A DNA stretch of 64,000 nucleotides. It comes from the human T2T-CHM13v2.0 reference genome, Homo sapiens. Positions 12,429-64,000 of this stretch are shown here, piece by piece. The notes beneath the pieces were generated by a model. That model made no database searches and was not told the origin of the DNA. It saw only the letters and a list, made by a program, of their open reading frames with translations. Position numbers and translations under genes: made by a program. Location: the NCBI RefSeq assembly GCF_009914755.1, contig NC_060925.1; one strand, given 5' to 3'. The first letter of the stretch is position 1. Each line of letters begins with the position of its first letter.

Positions 12429-12537
12429 ATGCCCCTCTTAGATTCATCTTATTTACCACCAACCATCTTTATTTTGACTCACGTTCTTGGAGTTGCTGGT
12501 GTTCTATACTGGAAGAGGCATGCCAGAGGTAGAGCAG
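12429..12537 (+). CDS. MACF1: MACF1 alternative first coding exon (plectin-1b-like hydrophobic N-terminus), MPLLDSSYLPPTIFILTHVLGVAGVLYWKRHARGRA+G
   Basis: ATG at 12429 (G at -3), 36 open codons + 1 nt, donor CAG|gtaact at 12537/12538. Phase 1 matches the G|AT junction of the 38601 exon, giving ...[13 protein letters not shown]. Lies in an Alu-free island with TF motifs upstream. Confidence 0.9.
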
Positions 12538-21043: not shown

Positions 21044-21239
21044 ACTCAGGGAATTTAAATCTGATAAAGGAAGAGGTTACTAGATATGAGTCAGGAAATG
21101 TTCATTCCTTTTTTTCTCTCTTCCCTATTTCTTATGCATTCCTTTTCCCAGTACGAGGCAAATTCTAGGAGGACCCTTCATCTCCAAGGCTAAAAAGAGT
21201 CTTATAAGAGGGACAAACTGAGTACAGTTGTCACAGGTT

Positions 21240-22170
21240 ATCAGGGTGACTGAGAGCTTAGTCTAGGCGGGATAAAGTCAGCTGTGAGAACCTTTATTAG
21301 TAAGCAGTAACAGGATTATTAGCAGTTTGTAGGTGGGAGGGATACCCACTTGGGAGTGAAGTTGTCAAGCAACTGAGGCAGGTCATAGGGCTTGTTTAAA
21401 CTGAATGGTCTGCTAGGGAAGCTTGCATTTACTTTTTTTCATTTGTAGTCGTTTGGGCTAATCTCTGGAAACTTGCTTTCCTAGGTGCTGCCCCTCCTCC
21501 CTCCCTGCCTTCAGGAACAGGATTGAAAGCAGCATTAGCCTGAAGAAGTCGTTCTATTTAGGGAGCTAGAGCAGAGGGCCAGTGATTAGGCCCTTATCTG
21601 CAGCGGGGCCTTTTTGAGTGGTGTGGGGCAGGGCTGCAGTGTCTGTCCTGACACCCACAGAGGCTGGACTTTTCTGTCCCCTGGTTGGGTTAGAACTGTG
21701 AAGAACCAATAGAAGGGCTGGGCCAGCTGAATGAAAAAGCCCTTCATTGTGTTTCTTCAACATTCCAGTGTCTGGTACAATTAGCCAAGACTCGGAAAAC
21801 AAGTTGGACAAACAAGCAGGCAGCCTTCTACTGATGGATGAAAGGATTTCTGGCACAGCTGAGTTAAGTGCACTGACTGTAAAGACAGAGTAGGAGGATC
21901 TGGGAAGAAGAAGGGGACTTTGGAATGCCATTCCTGGCTGTGAGGGGAAAGAATGGAGCAACAAGCAAACGGTATTTTTGAAGCTGATAAAATTTGCTGT
22001 GATAATCTACCTGGGAGGCTGGCTGAGGCGAGGCTGGCTGAGGTGGGGCTACTCTGTAAAGTAGGTGGAATCACTGGGGAGTTACTGACTCTTCCCTTTT
22101 GGCAGCTGTAAGTGCGGGGAAGGGAAACTTTCTTTGGAATCTAGGGATCTGTTCACAGTGGACGGTGAGT
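21240..22170 (+). promoter_or_regulatory. Putative intragenic promoter/enhancer upstream of the 22.8-kb exon candidate
   Basis: Repeat-free unique sequence. CCAAT 21706, SOX CATTGT 21745, TEAD CATTCC 21761, palindromic GGAATGCCATTCC 21922-21934. Donor-like sites at 21971/21972 and 22164/22165. Confidence 0.4.
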
Positions 22171-22767
22171 GTATGAGCTTGCTCCATTATAGTCTCTCCC
22201 ATCATGAGACCTTCTCATTTGGTTAACACTATATGTACTTCTGCCTGAGAAGAGGCACACCTGAGGAGCAAGTTGTTGGGCAATGGATGCACTGTTCCTG
22301 ACTTGGCAGTAAACCACTTAGCTCACCAGCTCTCCTGCAACTAAGATTCACCACATTACAAGCTTCTGCTCTGCAAATGGAGGGTAACTCAAAGACCAGT
22401 TTCTTCCTACTCAGGTTTACTCACTTCATACCTTGACTGGACTTTTGCATATGGAGCTCTCCCCTCTGTACGCTCTATTGGTCTGGAAACACAGAGTTGG
22501 TGCTACTTTTGAACAGCATGCAGCATGCTATATGCCTGAGACATGGACCCAGTTTTTGGAAGTGCCCTAGGGAGGAGCTTCCTCTCTGACCTCAAGGGAA
22601 GAAGGAGGTCAGTAGGAAGTGGTGGGTGGAGCCACTTCTCTGTTCTGCTGTCTCCTCTCTACACCTCACAGCCCTTTTTGAGGAGCTGCGAAGGGTGCAC
22701 AGGCCAGTAGCTGGAGGTTCTTTGGTACCCCCTCCTTTTAGGTGGGGTCAGCAGACACAGGGGCGCC

Positions 22768-22834
22768 ATGTGGCCGAGTTACCAAGATGAACACGAGTTC
22801 AACGCCCACCTGGTTTGTCGCATGTGCTGTATGG
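22768..22834 (+). CDS. MACF1: Candidate MACF1 alternative N-terminal exon (plectin-1g-like), MWPSYQDEHEFNAHLVCRMCCM+G
   Basis: gccATG at 22768, 22 codons + 1 nt, donor TGG|gttagt, phase 1 into the DERDRV exon. Upstream acceptor cctccttttag| at 22741 gives a 93-nt symmetric exon 22742-22834. Locally CpG-retaining and Alu-free. Confidence 0.55.
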
Positions 22835-24594
22835 GTTAGTATGTGAAGTTTTTTTTTTTTTTTGCTTGTCCGGGCCTGAGGATCCCAAATAGCCCTTGCT
22901 CTCATTGACTCATAGGAATGCATGGACTTCGAAGCCTTGTGGTGTTACAACCTTTAGGCTTGTTAAAATGTGCAGTGGAATAGATTGGGGTGCCCTACTT
23001 CCTGGGGAACTTCTTAAGCTTGCAGTAACTGGCAGTTAAGAGCCCAAGCTTTGGGTGTAGAACTTTTTTTATAGAGACTGAATTCATGCTCATGCTTCTG
23101 CCTGTATCAGGAAACCACTTTTAAGGTATGTTGCATAGTGCTGAAAGTCCAGAGTGTATTTTTAGCAGAAGTTGGTTGGTTACGGAGTCCACCTCTGAGC
23201 AGACTGGCGGGAGGATGGGGGGTGGGAGGGAGGAGTCATGGCCTATGTTTCCTCTTTGGGGCTTATTGCTAGTTCTTTTACACTTTACTCTGCCAGCTGT
23301 GACAGAGAGAGAAAAAGACTCAAAGATGATCTGGGGTCAGGGACCTAAATAAGAGAGGCTAGGGGAAGAGTCATGTTAGCTGTGACTTAGATCTCTCTTG
23401 ATAAGGCATCATTAAATAATGATTATTTAAGTAATGTCCTGTGGCCTTGAACAAGTGACTTAACCTTTTTGGCCGTAGGTTTCCTTGGTTTCAAAATTGT
23501 AGGGTATACAGACTGGTGCTAGACTGAGAGACATCAATTCTCTGTAAAATGAAAAAAGATAAAGAAAATGTAGTGTGTCTTTCATAAAGCTAAACTTAAA
23601 GAATTGTCTTTTATTCTGAAATTGTCTCTCCTACTTTCTAATGTTAAAATATCCTTTATTTTATGAAAGAATTGTTATTATATGGTAGTGTGTTTTTAAG
23701 ATATCCCTACTTAGCAAAATGAAAAGTGACAACTTCTGTTAGGCTTTCTGATTTATTGTGGAACATGTATTTGTCTATGAAATCTTAGTTTGGGAACCAC
23801 TGGTTTGGTAATCTACTATCTTTTGATTTTATACTTTGAGTCTCTAACAAGGAGCAAAATTGTGACCCAAATAGGCAGATTTTCATTAAAATTGAAGTAA
23901 CTAGTTGTTTGATGAAGAGGAGACCTTAGAAAAATCTCAGAGAAGGAGAGCAACAGAACTAGGGTTCTGATCAGTCTCCTGACTCCTAGGCTAGTGCTTG
24001 CAAGTATTTAGGTGCTTTTTGAGGAAAAAAAGCTGCCATAGCAATAATGCTTGGGGCACAGAGGGGGCAATTTTAGTGGTCTACTTTTTTTTTTTTATCT
24101 TTCCTGTATCATTGAGATTTCTTCCCTGGAACCTAGAAGAAAGAATTGCCTATATCTAAAAGTGCTTGGAGATAAACGTATAGCAAAAGGGCCTTTCCTG
24201 TAACCAACAAAGAAGTATAGGAAAGTCTAAAATCTTTATTGAAAGTTTCAGGGCAAAAACGTAATGTAGCCCCATCTCCCCCAATCCCACATAATCCCCT
24301 AAAGGCACTGTAGACTAATAGCTAAGAAAATGGGCTTGGCATCAACTGTCTACACGGGGTTCCTACTCCACCACTTAACAACAAAACCAACTGGGGACAT
24401 TGCTTAACCTTTCTCTAGCTCGGTTACCTCATTTTTTATTTTTCTTTTTTTCATATCACCGTAAAATAAAATCACTTGTATAGGGAGAATGAATGAAGAT
24501 TAGCAGTGGATTTTCATGTTATATACTTTTCACATTATATTACTACTGTAACTACCAGCTAGCATTTATTAACTTATTATGTGTGAGAGACTAG

Positions 24595-38600: not shown

Positions 38601-38662
38601 ATGAACGGGACCGGGTTCAGAAGAAAACGTTCACCAAGTGGGTCAACAAGCACTTAATGAAG
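38601..38662 (+). CDS. MACF1: MACF1 first common exon, start of calponin-homology domain CH1: (D)[20 protein letters not shown]
   Basis: Acceptor tttcctttacag|, donor AAG|gtagga. 62 nt, phase 1 to 0. Hallmark spectraplakin ABD motif. Confidence 0.98.
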
Positions 38663-59740: not shown

Positions 59741-59836
59741 GAGCCAGCAGGGCTGAAGACCCTCCGTCTGGTGAGCATGCCCTCCTGGCGCCATACAAAC
59801 AACGAGGAGCAGGCGGAGGAAGATGATGATGATGTA
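59741..59836 (+). CDS. MACF1: MACF1 alternative cassette exon in CH1 (plectin exon-3alpha position): EPAGLKTLRL (short, to 59770) or EPAGLKTLRLVSMPSWRHTNNEEQAEEDDDDV (long)
   Basis: 80-nt AG-free pyrimidine-rich tract then ccaaag| acceptor. In-frame donors CTG|gtgagc (59770) and GTA|gtaggt (59836); 30 or 96 nt, both phase 0. Confidence 0.8.
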
Positions 59837-62271: not shown

Positions 62272-64000
62272 GTAAGACCATCACATGCCTTCCCCATTCT
62301 TCCAGGCTGTGTTGGCATTGGGGCCCTATTCAGAGATGTTTTTAGTGCCCCTAGTAAGCTCTCAGTAAATGCTAAATCTGATTGACCCAGTTCTGAGTCT
62401 TAACTTGCTAGTGAGCAATTGTATTCTGGTTAGAGAAATCATTCAGTACTCACACAGAACTTGTGACCTCCTTGAGAGGAAGAATGTTCACGGAGAAGAA
62501 CATGATGATAAAGATGGAATTTTGTGGATGCACCTTAGGTGGGGGTCAAAATGAAGATGAAAAATAAACTAGAAAAGAGATGGAAAAAAGGTGTGGCATC
62601 CAGGAAGAGAGAGAACCAGATTGCTATATCAAGGTGAAAATGAGATAAGGGGGTAGTGTGGATTGTGGAATGCCACATCAGATCTGAGAAAAAGGTCTAA
62701 GTTGTTAAGCACTGATAACTTAAGTGAGCAGTTTAATACAGGAGAAAGATATTTAGAGTATAGTAGAGCTAGATATAGGAAGGGAGAAAGAAGCTTTTCC
62801 TTCCCTGGATGAGGAAGACAACAACCCATTTTTAGACATAGGAAGAGGAGCCAATGAAGAGAGTAAGAATGAAAATGAGCATGAGGAGGAGTATTGGTAG
62901 TCATAGAACGTTTCACCGAGAAGATACCCTAATGTTGTACTAGTCCAGTTTCTTATTATAGATAAAGAAACTGAGACCTGGACAGGTAAATGACCTGCCT
63001 CAAATCACAAGTCAGAGCAAAGCTGAGACTTTAACTCAGGCCTTCTGACATGCAGTTTAGTGCACCTTCCACTATCCATGCTGCTTTCTACACAGCACCC
63101 TTCCTCCTTTGCTTCCTAACTGAAGGAACCAAATCCAGGGATTGATGGATGAGAAGCAGAGCACAAGTGGTGTGGCCATCTTTGAAAAAGAAAAGAAAAA
63201 TACCTCTTTTGAGAGACAAGGAGAATGACAGAGGGAGGGGTGAAGATACAGAGATGGTTTGTGGTAGAAAGAAGATGGATGAGGGAGTCAAAGAGTTCAT
63301 CTGCTTAGAGTGAGCCATATGGAAAATATTTGGGATATCTAGGGTTGCCAAGCAACAACAGGGTCAACGTGACATTAAATGGTATGCATATTTTTGGAGT
63401 CAGTTCATTTTTGACACTCATATCAGTAATTCTCATTAACTTCTAAAATTCTCTGTTTGCTCTCATAACAATTTACTTCTGGTATAACATTTCTTATTTT
63501 CTTGTTATTTCTCTGTTTGCTCCAATGCATTATAGGCTCCGTGAGGACGGGGAATAAGATCTTAACATTTCACCTTCATCTCTCATAATGAATGGTCCTC
63601 AGTTGGCACTTAATAAATATTTGCTGAAATAAATTGATAAATAAAAGTGGTAGAAGTGGAGGTTGCTGAAGTGTTTAGGGTACTGGAGAAAGCAGCATTG
63701 AAATGCCTGTGTGTGGAGCTAGAGGAAGCTGGGGTGGGGGCCTTACTGGCAGGGTTTATGAGAAGAATTGATTAGCTAGAAGTCTAAATCAGGACAAAAA
63801 GTGGCTTTGGTTACTATGATAGAATGAAAACGTGGACAGGTAAGAACAGTGGATTCAAAGAAGGGCAGGGAGATTACTAGAGCCGTTCTTGGTAACGGTA
63901 AAGTCCAAGATGTAGCTGTGCAGATGGCCAAGGTAGGGAAAAACGAAAGTCATCAGAATTCAAAAGGCAGGCAATTTGTGCAGATAGTGTAATATTTGGG

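What the first reader, a model, noticed from the sequence alone, without database searches (positions are those of the whole stretch)
22742..22834. Cys-rich N-terminal exon candidate resembling plectin 1g
Seen: gccATG-initiated MWPSYQDEHEFNAHLVCRMCCM ending in a phase-1 donor G|gttagt, plus an acceptor at 22741 that makes a 93-nt frame-preserving exon. Several CpGs are retained in otherwise CpG-depleted DNA. Spliced product ...CRMCCM-DERDRV parallels plectin 1g (...QLCCV-DERDRV, recalled). Inference: an alternative N-terminus whose di-cysteine next to CH1 could be S-palmitoylated (reversible membrane address), or whose His/Cys cluster binds metal.
Basis: partly seen in the sequence, partly recalled or inferred. 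Interest (0 to 1): 0.75.

Follow-up and report, generated by a model that had tools for sequence, protein, structure and literature searches.

The report
Conserved di-cysteine alternative first exon of MACF1
This short stretch inside the first intron of the human MACF1 gene is a genuine, very old alternative first coding exon that puts a 22-residue peptide ending in two cysteines directly in front of the actin-binding domain, and matching exons exist in the sister genes dystonin and plectin.

Summary

The pattern alone is not above chance. Ten distinct donors in the same intron do as well on a rough score.

Comparison with other sequences settles it:
- 38 predicted proteins join a homologous "...MCC-x" peptide directly to DERDRV of the first calponin-homology (CH1) domain. 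They range from elephant shark and teleosts through amphibians, reptiles and birds to mammals.
- By CH1 signature, 23 are MACF1-type, 7 dystonin-type and 8 plectin-type.
- In the human genome, unbiased scans upstream of DST and PLEC recover MGQLMKNDQDWNAKLVGLMCCM (same length, same GTTAGT donor) and ...GYLYQQLCCV as the top hits.

So this is a real alternative first coding exon that predates the MACF1/DST/PLEC split. It is already present in automated gene models, absent from the RefSeq transcript shown, and not described in the papers I could search.

Function is inferred. The invariant hydrophobic-Cys-Cys-hydrophobic motif resembles the GAP-43 acylation motif, so dual S-palmitoylation is my preferred mechanism (about 0.45). 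A His/Cys metal cluster is weakened, and the 93-nt cassette reading is not conserved. No human transcript data could be checked.

The parts
22768..22834 (+). Coding part of the alternative first coding exon: ATG, 22 codons (MWPSYQDEHEFNAHLVCRMCCM) and the first base (G) of the split Asp codon.
   Evidence: sequence and translation. (orthologous gene models starting with this peptide). (single copy in the human genome).
22835..22840 (+). Phase-1 splice donor GTTAGT. It is weak by consensus (T at +3).
   Evidence: rough score 0.65 bits, against 4.4-7.1 for four annotated donors and -0.31 for the donor of exon 59741-59836; the hexamer and the 13 exon bases before it are identical in the DST paralogous exon. 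The three genomic read-through ORFs from other mammals all end ...MCCMG*, as expected if G|GTTAG/A is kept.
22742..22767 (+). 26 nt between the candidate acceptor and the ATG. Most likely 5' UTR, either inside a longer first exon or after a splice from an upstream non-coding exon.
   Evidence: In other mammals the translation of this stretch varies (GVSRHRGA / EGSRHRGA / GPTDTRGA). P0012 matches the human sequence in a different frame upstream of the ATG, which implies a 1-nt indel.
22715..22741 (+). Candidate 3' splice site (ggttctttggtaccccctccttttAG). Its use is unknown.
   Evidence: No transcript data were available.
22546..22641 (+). Conserved non-coding block 127-222 nt upstream of the ATG. 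It is a candidate core promoter or 5' UTR element (inference).
   Evidence: the human translation DPVFGSALGRSFLSDLKGRRRSVGSGGWSHFS is identical over 32 residues in the read-through ORF P0011, whose more distant flanks are diverged. P0002 and P0012 share the overlapping VGGATSL reading. The hub's RefSeq table lists enhancer marks at 21206-21924 and 22303-22412.
38601..38662 (+). Common exon 2 (start of CH1: [21 protein letters not shown]). It is the splice partner.
   Evidence: The hub's annotation. Gene models.

Best explanation
Window 22768-22834 is the coding part of a real, ancient alternative first coding exon of MACF1.

How it works:
- A transcript that starts, or splices in, just upstream uses the ATG at 22768.
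- It splices from 22834 to exon 2 at 38601 in phase 1.
- The resulting MACF1 has MWPSYQDEHEFNAHLVCRMCCM placed immediately before the first helix of CH1. This replaces the hydrophobic 36-residue N-terminus of the RefSeq-selected transcript.

The exon belongs to a family shared by all three vertebrate CH-domain plakin genes: MACF1, DST, and the PLEC exon I recall as 1g. Its hallmark is N-A-H-L-x-x-x-[M/L]-C-C-[M/A/I/V/T/F/L] directly before DERD(R/K)V.

Shown: the sequence features, the conservation, the paralogy, and the junction in gene models.

Inferred: use in human tissues, which I consider very likely (about 0.85-0.9).

Inferred mechanism (about 0.45): the two invariant cysteines are S-acylated, as in the GAP-43 motif MLCCM. 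That would reversibly tether the actin-binding domain of this isoform to a membrane.

The confidence value refers to the exon being a real, conserved coding first exon.
For: (1) Orthologues. The 42-aa open frame across the exon hit 8 of 9 candidates.
- Seven are predicted MACF1 fragments of Lynx, Aotus-type, Saimiri, Castor (two), Lemmus and Galemys.
- Each starts with this peptide: 22/22 identical in five, 21/22 in Lemmus, 20/22 in Galemys.
- Six are fused directly to [14 protein letters not shown]. Galemys (P0009) carries an 8-residue insert before it.

(2) Depth. Searching residues 1-40 of such a model gave 53 hits among 155 candidates.
- 36 carry CC-x fused directly to DERDRV, and one more (P0079) has the peptide with an aberrant insert.
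- With two longer plectins, 38 proteins have the direct fusion: 23 MACF1-type, 7 DST-type and 8 PLEC-type by CH1 signature.
- They range from Callorhinchus, Acipenser and teleosts through a frog, a caecilian, tuatara, snake, gecko, turtle and birds to mammals.

(3) Paralogues in the human genome, found without using the Cys filter.
- DST: among 5,877 stop-free 22-codon windows before a phase-1 GT in 200 kb upstream of the DERDKV exon, the best match to the MACF1 peptide is MGQLMKNDQDWNAKLVGLMCCM + G|GTTAGT. BLOSUM62 score 46, z 7.0, next best 23.
- PLEC: among 2,228 such windows in 40 kb upstream, the best is ...GYLYQQLCCV + G|GTGGGT. Score 22, z 5.2, next best 10.
- The DST exon has the same length (22 codons from its second ATG), 9 of 22 identical residues, and the identical ATGTGCTGTATGG|GTTAGTA.

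(4) Coding-type contrast. In the genomic read-through ORFs P0002 and P0012 the translation upstream of the Met is diverged or frame-shifted, while the peptide keeps 21/22 and 19/22 residues. All three read-through ORFs (P0002, P0011, P0012) keep the stop-free frame and the ...MCCMG* end.

(5) Motif. Cys-Cys 38/38 by selection; Met/Leu before it 38/38; Leu at -7 in 37/38; the residue after it never charged. GAP-43's acylation motif is MLCCMRRTKQVEK (passage of PMC2994833). [quoted passage not shown]
Against: - No human transcript, CAGE, ribosome-profiling or peptide evidence could be examined. The exon is not in the RefSeq transcript listed by the hub.
- Gene models in other species may be ab initio or projected, so they are not independent proof of transcription.
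- Several (P0003-P0006 and others) are short models that run into the intron after the exon ending ...FLKQRQ. No model longer than 2,000 aa could be searched. Linkage to full-length MACF1 is therefore not shown.
- The donor is weak on my rough matrix, and the ATG-ORF-donor pattern alone is matched by 10 other places in the intron.
- In P0011 the peptide has 3 changes in 22 residues, while a 96-nt upstream block translates identically to human. In that species the coding part is not the best-conserved part.
- Invariance of Cys-Cys is partly circular. I counted proteins selected for CC-x before DERD, and retrieval used words from the N-terminus.
- Identical nucleotides at the exon end in MACF1 and DST could reflect a splicing constraint rather than a protein constraint.
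- For acylation there is no direct evidence. The motif sits at residues 20-21, not 3-4 as in GAP-43, and is followed by D-E-R-D rather than a basic run.
Confidence: 0.85

Rival explanations
1. Real alternative N-terminus, but it acts without lipid. The 22-residue peptide extends or flanks the first CH1 helix. It would tune F-actin affinity, the open/closed state of the tandem CH domains, or a partner-binding site, as other plakin first-exon peptides are reported to direct isoform behaviour. The Cys pair would then serve redox sensing or a metal-bridged dimer.
For: - The peptide is fused with no linker to DERDRVQKK, the start of CH1.
- Conservation extends beyond the cysteines: Asn 22/38, Ala 29/38, His 30/38, Leu 37/38 and Met 36/38, with a spacing compatible with one helix face.
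- Reviews state that plectin's first-exon peptides dictate isoform behaviour (PMC8468861 passage). They also state that a short BPAG1a1 N-terminus mediates actin binding (PMC3352950 table), and that dystonin lead sequences can promote dimerisation.
- That residues N-terminal to CH1 take part in actin binding in spectrin and filamin is recalled, not seen.
Against: - Strict invariance of two adjacent cysteines flanked by hydrophobic residues is not needed for a helix extension.
- His and the third Cys are replaceable, which argues against a fixed single-chain metal site.
- The structure prediction gave no usable model (mean pLDDT 49.5).
Confidence: 0.3
2. The exon mainly heads short or non-productive transcripts. 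Examples are the roughly 110-140-aa models that read into the intron after the exon ending ...FLKQRQ. Its conservation would then reflect a regulatory promoter/exon unit or a small CH1-only product rather than a full-length MACF1 isoform.
For: - Many of the models end in species-specific read-through tails right after ...FLKQRQV, for example P0003-P0006, P0049-P0051, P0057, P0061 and P0068-P0071.
- The human read-through would give ...[37 protein letters not shown].
- No model above 2,000 aa could be searched.
- A strongly conserved non-coding block lies just upstream.
Against: - Peptide-level conservation from shark to human in three paralogues is hard to explain without a translated product.
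- Longer models with the same N-terminus continue through CH1 (P0007, P0052, P0055, P0056, P0058, P0059, P0066, P0067, P0072, P0074).
- Two plectin models of 716 and 1,243 aa contain the motif, but internally at residue ~568, as likely fused models.
- Short models are typical of fragmentary predictions of giant genes.
Confidence: 0.1
3. Chance open frame with a chance donor in intron 1, with no function.
For: - By pattern alone, 10 other phase-1 donors in the intron do as well.
- The donor is weak.
- The exon is not in the RefSeq transcript shown by the hub.
Against: All the comparative evidence.
Confidence: 0.02

Closest known systems
Plectin variable first exons, in particular the exon recalled as 1g (peptide ending ...YLYQQLCCV)
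   Same: - An own ATG and a short peptide.
- A phase-1 donor spliced to the common exon that begins (D)[13 protein letters not shown].
- A Cys-Cys plus aliphatic residue as the last three residues.
- It lies a few kb upstream of exon 2: 3.7 kb in PLEC, 15.8 kb in MACF1.
- A review describes a dozen plectin first exons that give isoform-specific N-termini (PMC8468861, passages).
   Different: - The human plectin peptide is 41 residues and, apart from L-x-x-x-L-C-C-V, is unlike the MACF1 peptide. The donor is GTGGGT, not GTTAGT.
- Fish and bird plectin versions (HLYSRMCCA, LSGRMCCA) are much closer to MACF1.
- No function for this plectin isoform turned up in my searches: 0 papers for 'plectin 1g', and 0 for 'plectin' plus 'exon 1g'.
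Unlabelled DST (dystonin/BPAG1) exon at G000:C6:56583616-56583550 (-), peptide MGQLMKNDQDWNAKLVGLMCCM
   Same: - Same length and same phase.
- Identical last 13 exon bases and an identical GTTAGTA donor.
- 9 of 22 identical residues.
- It lies 7 kb upstream of the DERDKV exon.
- DST-type gene models of teleosts and a caecilian start with it.
   Different: - Lys replaces the His, and Gly replaces the third Cys.
- The reviews I saw list dystonin N-termini 1, 2 (transmembrane) and 3 (myristoylation motif), with no di-cysteine type.
- I could not search the protein database with this exon, because its open frame is shorter than the 40-aa minimum.
GAP-43 N-terminal dual S-acylation motif (MLCCMRRTKQVEK)
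   Same: Two adjacent cysteines flanked by Met/Leu near the N-terminus. The tripeptide C-C-M is shared, preceded by an aliphatic residue (PMC2994833 passage).
   Different: - Position 20-21 instead of 3-4.
- Followed by D-E-R-D-R-V-Q-K-K rather than R-R-T-K.
- There is no evidence of common descent and none of acylation here. This is a functional analogy only.
Described MACF1 N-terminal isoforms (MACF1a1, a2, a3)
   Same: Alternative 5' ends in front of, or within, the actin-binding domain, produced by different promoters (PMC4914211 and PMC3352950, passages).
   Different: - In the passages I saw, a1's first exon is said to lie about 100 kb from the CH1 exons, and a3 lacks CH1.
- None is described with a di-cysteine N-terminus.
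- The primary papers (Bernier 1996, Gong 2001, Lin 2005) are not held. I therefore cannot exclude that one of the named isoforms is this exon.

Membership tests
Plakin/spectraplakin variable first coding exon | Lies upstream of the common exon that starts CH1, with its own ATG and an open frame ending at a donor in phase with that exon. | tested here: met
   ATG at 22768, 22 codons, a phase-1 donor at 22835, and exon 2 at 38601 completing GAT (Asp).
Plakin/spectraplakin variable first coding exon | The peptide, the frame and the junction are conserved in orthologues. | tested here: met
   23 MACF1-type models with the direct fusion, from teleosts to mammals, plus two with aberrant inserts.
Plakin/spectraplakin variable first coding exon | Transcribed from its own promoter and spliced to exon 2 in the organism concerned (human). 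| not testable with these tools
   - No RNA-seq, CAGE or EST data were available.
- The only indirect hints are a conserved upstream block at 22546-22641 and the RefSeq enhancer marks in the hub's table.
Homologue of the plectin exon recalled as 1g | Detectable sequence similarity beyond chance to that exon's peptide, at the same position relative to exon 2. | tested here: met
   - it is the top of 2,228 windows in 40 kb upstream of PLEC exon 2 (score 22 against 10 for the runner-up).
- teleost plectin HLYSRMCCA and teleost MACF1 HLYSLMCCA serve as intermediates.
- The name '1g' is recalled.
N-terminal dual S-acylation (GAP-43-type) signal | Adjacent cysteines with hydrophobic neighbours, close to the N-terminus. 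| tested here: met
   [M/L]-C-C-[M/A/I/T/F/L/V] in 38/38, at residues 19-22 of the 22-residue MACF1-type and DST-type peptides; the plectin-type peptides and P0064, P0065 and P0067 are longer. The motif comparison is with PMC2994833.
N-terminal dual S-acylation (GAP-43-type) signal | A neighbouring basic or second lipid signal that gives first membrane contact. | tested here: inconclusive
   - R18 (or L) precedes the motif. It is followed by D-E-R-D-R-V-Q-K-K, which is of mixed charge.
- There is no Gly2 for myristoylation.
N-terminal dual S-acylation (GAP-43-type) signal | Thioester-linked fatty acid shown on the cysteines. | not testable with these tools
The main-text search found no paper linking MACF1 to an acylation site (listings only).
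His/Cys metal-binding cluster | Three or four conserved ligand residues. | tested here: not met
   
- Only the two adjacent Cys are invariant.
- C17 is present in 10/38 and His14 in 30/38.
- Human DST has K and G at those places, and human PLEC has Y and Q.
Frame-preserving 93-nt cassette exon | The reading frame from the acceptor to the donor is conserved. | tested here: not met
   - One of three genomic ORFs from other mammals (P0012) is shifted by 1 nt between the acceptor-like site and the ATG.
- The 8 residues there vary among the others.
- All gene models start at the Met.

The most novel reading that the evidence does not exclude
All three vertebrate CH-domain plakins (MACF1, dystonin, plectin) have kept, since before their duplication, a dedicated first exon whose only invariant feature is a hydrophobic-Cys-Cys-hydrophobic motif abutting CH1. 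This would be a shared, reversible dual-palmitoylation switch that makes a membrane-anchored actin-binding isoform of each giant cytolinker. Such an isoform class has not been described for MACF1 or dystonin.
Probability: 0.4. Interest if true: 0.7.

Novelty: new member of a known kind. Interest (0 to 1): 0.55.

Why it matters
Plakin N-terminal first-exon peptides decide where these giant cytoskeletal linkers act, and isoform-specific plectin mutations cause distinct diseases (PMC8468861, passage).

A di-cysteine N-terminus kept from cartilaginous fish to human in MACF1, DST and PLEC points to an isoform class with a specific role. That role is probably membrane-linked, and the reviews I could read do not describe it.

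It gives a directly testable hypothesis: reporter fusions with and without the CC->SS change, and acyl-exchange assays. It also flags coding sequence that variant interpretation based on the selected RefSeq transcript would treat as deep intronic.

Tried and rejected
I then used the 42-aa stop-to-stop frame of the same place.
- The search of protein representatives gave 42 hits. Five were relevant (P0002, P0004, P0005, P0011, P0012). The other 37 are repeat proteins that match the non-coding part of the query (residues about 3-38) and were set aside as spurious.
- The 'longer' searches are capped at 2,000 aa, so full-length MACF1 models with this N-terminus could not be sought.
- Of the 53 hits, 12 are genomic ORFs through exon 2 only (P0080, P0082-88, P0090-93). 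Three gene models have other N-termini (P0081, P0089, P0094).
- The alignment A1 (30 rows) left out P0004-6, P0009, P0054, P0057, P0061 and P0079 as duplicates or aberrant, along with those 15.
- AlphaFold2 on A1 gave mean pLDDT 49.5 and pTM 0.30. The predicted helix 8-42 is not trustworthy and I drew no conclusion from it.
- The bacterial promoter/terminator scan is irrelevant to a human locus.
- A whole-genome search with the 22-aa peptide found only itself. The paralogues were found by scanning fetched DST and PLEC regions instead.
- The motif scan of the window for other recalled plakin N-terminal motifs found none upstream of exon 2. The one LPWNL match at 24121 is a chance hit in a frame with stops.
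- Literature: 0 papers for 'plectin 1g', for the peptide words, and for 'plectin' plus 'exon 1g'. These searches cover main text of the held library only.
- PMC314283 and the Jefferson 2006 DOI are not held.

Full report
**1. Observation**

The features are in the sequence as described.
- gccATGt at 22768.
- 22 codons, MWPSYQDEHEFNAHLVCRMCCM, ending at 22833.
- A G at 22834, then GTTAGT at 22835-22840.
- A pyrimidine-rich tract ending in AG at 22740-41, so that 22742-22834 is 93 nt.

Exon 2 of the RefSeq-selected transcript starts at 38601 with AT GAA CGG GAC CGG GTT. The spliced product therefore reads ...[20 protein letters not shown].

The exon holds 5 CpG in 93 nt, an observed/expected ratio of 0.65, against 0.25 for intron 1. 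790 of 25,970 (3.0%) 93-nt windows in the intron have as many.

The first exon of the selected transcript (12429-12536) encodes a different, hydrophobic peptide, MPLLDSSYLPPTIFILTHVLGVAGVLYWKRHARGRA.

**2. Is the pattern alone above chance? No.**

I used a rough donor matrix whose frequencies I recalled; they come from no tool.
- The candidate donor TGG|GTTAGT scores 0.65 bits.
- Four annotated donors in the window score 4.4-7.1. The donor of the small exon 59741-59836 scores -0.31.
- 152 of 1,499 GTs in intron 1 score at least as high as the candidate.
- 10 distinct phase-1 donors in the intron follow an ATG-started frame of 22 or more codons with an equal or better score.

**3. Orthologues**

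*First search.* The 42-aa stop-to-stop frame across the exon was searched against proteins of 75-2,000 aa. It returned 8 hits among 9 candidates.
- Seven are predicted MACF1 fragments of Lynx, a Boreoeutheria cluster, Saimiri, Castor (two), Lemmus and Galemys.
- All start with this peptide. It is identical in five, has A13V in Lemmus, and has Y5F and Q6R in Galemys.
- Six are fused directly to DERDRV of CH1. Galemys has an 8-residue insert before it, probably a modelling error.
- The eighth (P0002) is a genomic read-through ORF from an unnamed record.

*Read-through ORFs.* The exhaustive HMMER search added two more, P0011 and P0012. Its remaining 37 hits are repeat proteins that match the non-coding part of the query.
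- The peptides are 21/22 (P0002), 19/22 (P0011) and 19/22 (P0012) identical to human.
- All three keep the ATG, the open frame and the end ...MCCMG*, which is what G|GTTAG/A gives when read through.
- Upstream of the Met, P0002 and P0012 diverge or change frame.

*Second search.* Searching residues 1-40 of the Lynx model among proteins of 63-202 aa gave 53 hits among 155 candidates. They break down as follows:
- 36 proteins with CC-x fused directly to DERDRV.
- 1 with the peptide and an aberrant insert (P0079).
- P0002.
- 12 genomic ORFs through exon 2 only.
- 3 gene models with other N-termini (P0081, P0089, P0094).

*Third search.* The 302-2,000 aa range added two plectins.

*Total.* In all, 38 proteins have the direct fusion. 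I classed them by the CH1 sequence that follows: 23 MACF1-type, 7 dystonin-type (WINQHL) and 8 plectin-type (KAQ...).

The taxa named by the sources are:
- elephant shark, sturgeon and many teleosts;
- a frog and a caecilian;
- tuatara, a sea snake, a gecko and a turtle;
- turkey, quail and a honeyguide;
- mammals.

**4. Paralogues in the human genome**

The peptide itself has a single match in the genome. I located PLEC exon 2 and the DST DERDKV exon by searching with the exon 2 peptide. I then fetched 40 kb and 200 kb upstream of them.

A first scan, restricted to peptides ending in Cys-Cys, found two exons.
- PLEC: MSGAGGAFASPREVLLERPCWLDGGCEPARRGYLYQQLCCV + G|GTGGGT, 3.7 kb upstream of exon 2.
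- DST: MMGQLMKNDQDWNAKLVGLMCCM + G|GTTAGT, 7 kb upstream of the DERDKV exon.

A second scan used no Cys filter. It scored every stop-free 22-codon window before a phase-1 GT, on both strands, against the MACF1 peptide.

| Region | Windows scored | Top hit | BLOSUM62 score | z | Runner-up |
|---|---|---|---|---|---|
| DST, 200 kb | 5,877 | the DST exon | 46 | 7.0 | 23 (a CA-repeat artefact) |
| PLEC, 40 kb | 2,228 | the PLEC exon | 22 | 5.2 | 10 |

MACF1 and DST share the same length, 9 of 22 residues, and the identical 20 nt ATGTGCTGTATGG|GTTAGTA.

The exon therefore predates the split of the three genes. That this split goes back to the early vertebrate genome duplications is established knowledge, not tested here.

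**5. What is conserved**

Counting back from the last residue of the peptide (position 0), which abuts DERD:

| Position | Residue | Count |
|---|---|---|
| -10 | Asn | 22/38 |
| -9 | Ala | 29/38 |
| -8 | His | 30/38 |
| -7 | Leu | 37/38 |
| -3 | Met (Leu in the other 2) | 36/38 |
| -2 and -1 | Cys-Cys | 38/38 |
| 0 | M 15, A 15, I 3, T 2, F, L, V | never charged |

- The Cys-Cys count is partly circular, because these rows were selected on it.
- The third Cys of human MACF1 (C17) is present in only 10/38.
- Human DST has Lys for the His, and human PLEC has Tyr.

**6. First exon or cassette?**

- All models start at the Met.
- The eight residues between the acceptor-like AG and the ATG vary: GVSRHRGA, EGSRHRGA, GPTDTRGA.
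- In P0012 the upstream translation matches the human sequence in a different frame. That implies a 1-nt length difference in this stretch.
- The 93-nt frame-preserving property is therefore not conserved. The stretch is best read as 5' UTR.

Whether the human exon starts at a TSS nearby or is spliced at 22742 from an upstream non-coding exon cannot be told without RNA data.

A 96-nt block at 22546-22641 translates identically in human and P0011, while the farther flanks diverge. P0002 and P0012 share its 3' part. I read it as a candidate core promoter or 5' UTR element; that is an inference. The hub's table lists RefSeq enhancer marks at 21206-21924 and 22303-22412.

**7. Mechanism**

Shown: a conserved translated N-terminus placed with no linker before CH1.

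Inferred, and my preferred reading (about 0.45): dual S-acylation of the Cys pair.
- The motif [M/L]-C-C-[hydrophobic] near an N-terminus is that of GAP-43, whose acylation motif is MLCCMRRTKQVEK (PMC2994833, passages).
- Another review lists a transmembrane and a myristoylated dystonin N-terminus (PMC3352950, table).
- Membrane addressing by the first exon therefore has precedent in this family.

Against this reading:
- The motif is at residues 20-21, not 3-4.
- It is followed by D-E-R-D.
- There is no direct evidence of acylation.

The main rival (about 0.3) is a lipid-free role in tuning the actin-binding domain or binding a partner.

A single-chain His/Cys metal site is disfavoured by the replaceable His and third Cys.

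Structure prediction gave no usable model (pLDDT 49.5).

**8. Known or new?**

- The exon is present in automated gene models of many species (sources uniref, ncbi and nr). As an annotation object it is therefore not new.
- It is not among the exons of the RefSeq transcript shown by the hub.
- The reviews I read in passages list six MACF1 isoforms and N-terminal types 1/2/3, without a di-cysteine type (PMC4914211, PMC3352950, and the bioRxiv review).
- Searches for the peptides, for 'plectin 1g', and for 'plectin' plus 'exon 1g' returned 0 papers. These covered main text of the held library only.
Prior description cannot be excluded.

I file it as a new member of a known kind: a plakin variable first exon. 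The cross-paralogue di-cysteine motif is the part worth following.

**9. Limits**

- No human transcript or peptide evidence was examined.
- No nucleotide alignments of other vertebrates were available, so no dN/dS could be computed.
- No models above 2,000 aa could be searched.
- The paralogue classes were assigned by me from short CH1 signatures.
- The donor matrix and the label '1g' are recalled.

Noticed in passing
window 12429-12537: The first coding exon of the RefSeq-selected MACF1 transcript encodes MPLLDSSYLPPTIFILTHVLGVAGVLYWKRHARGRA. This is a hydrophobic stretch followed by basic residues and looks like a membrane anchor or signal-anchor. It recalls the transmembrane N-terminus reported for dystonin isoform 2 (PMC3352950 table).
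   Followed up: no
window 59741-59836: This 96-nt exon (EPAGLKTLRLVSMPSWRHTNNEEQAEEDDDDV) inserts an acidic loop inside CH1. Similar inserts at the same place occur in turtle, gecko, turkey and teleost MACF1 models, in a catfish dystonin model, and as a short version in a quail plectin model. It appears to be an optional exon shared by the paralogues. Its donor is the weakest in the window on my rough score (-0.31).
   Followed up: partly
window 22546-22641: A 96-nt non-coding block translates identically in human and in the read-through ORF of another mammal (P0011), while the farther flanks diverge. It contains GGAAGTGG and GGGTGGAGCC-like motifs. It is a candidate core promoter or 5' UTR element of the alternative exon.
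   Followed up: partly
G000:C6:56583616-56583550 (-), in locus L014: Human DST has a paralogous di-cysteine first exon (MGQLMKNDQDWNAKLVGLMCCM + G|GTTAGT), preceded by a good acceptor-like tttcctgcAG just before its ATGs. The reviews I saw do not list it among the dystonin N-terminal types.
   Followed up: partly
window 62272-62385: Many short gene models with this N-terminus read through the donor after ...FLKQRQ into the intron. In human that frame stays open for 37 more codons ([37 protein letters not shown]). This hints at a retained-intron or early-terminated transcript class, or at a shared modelling artefact.
   Followed up: no
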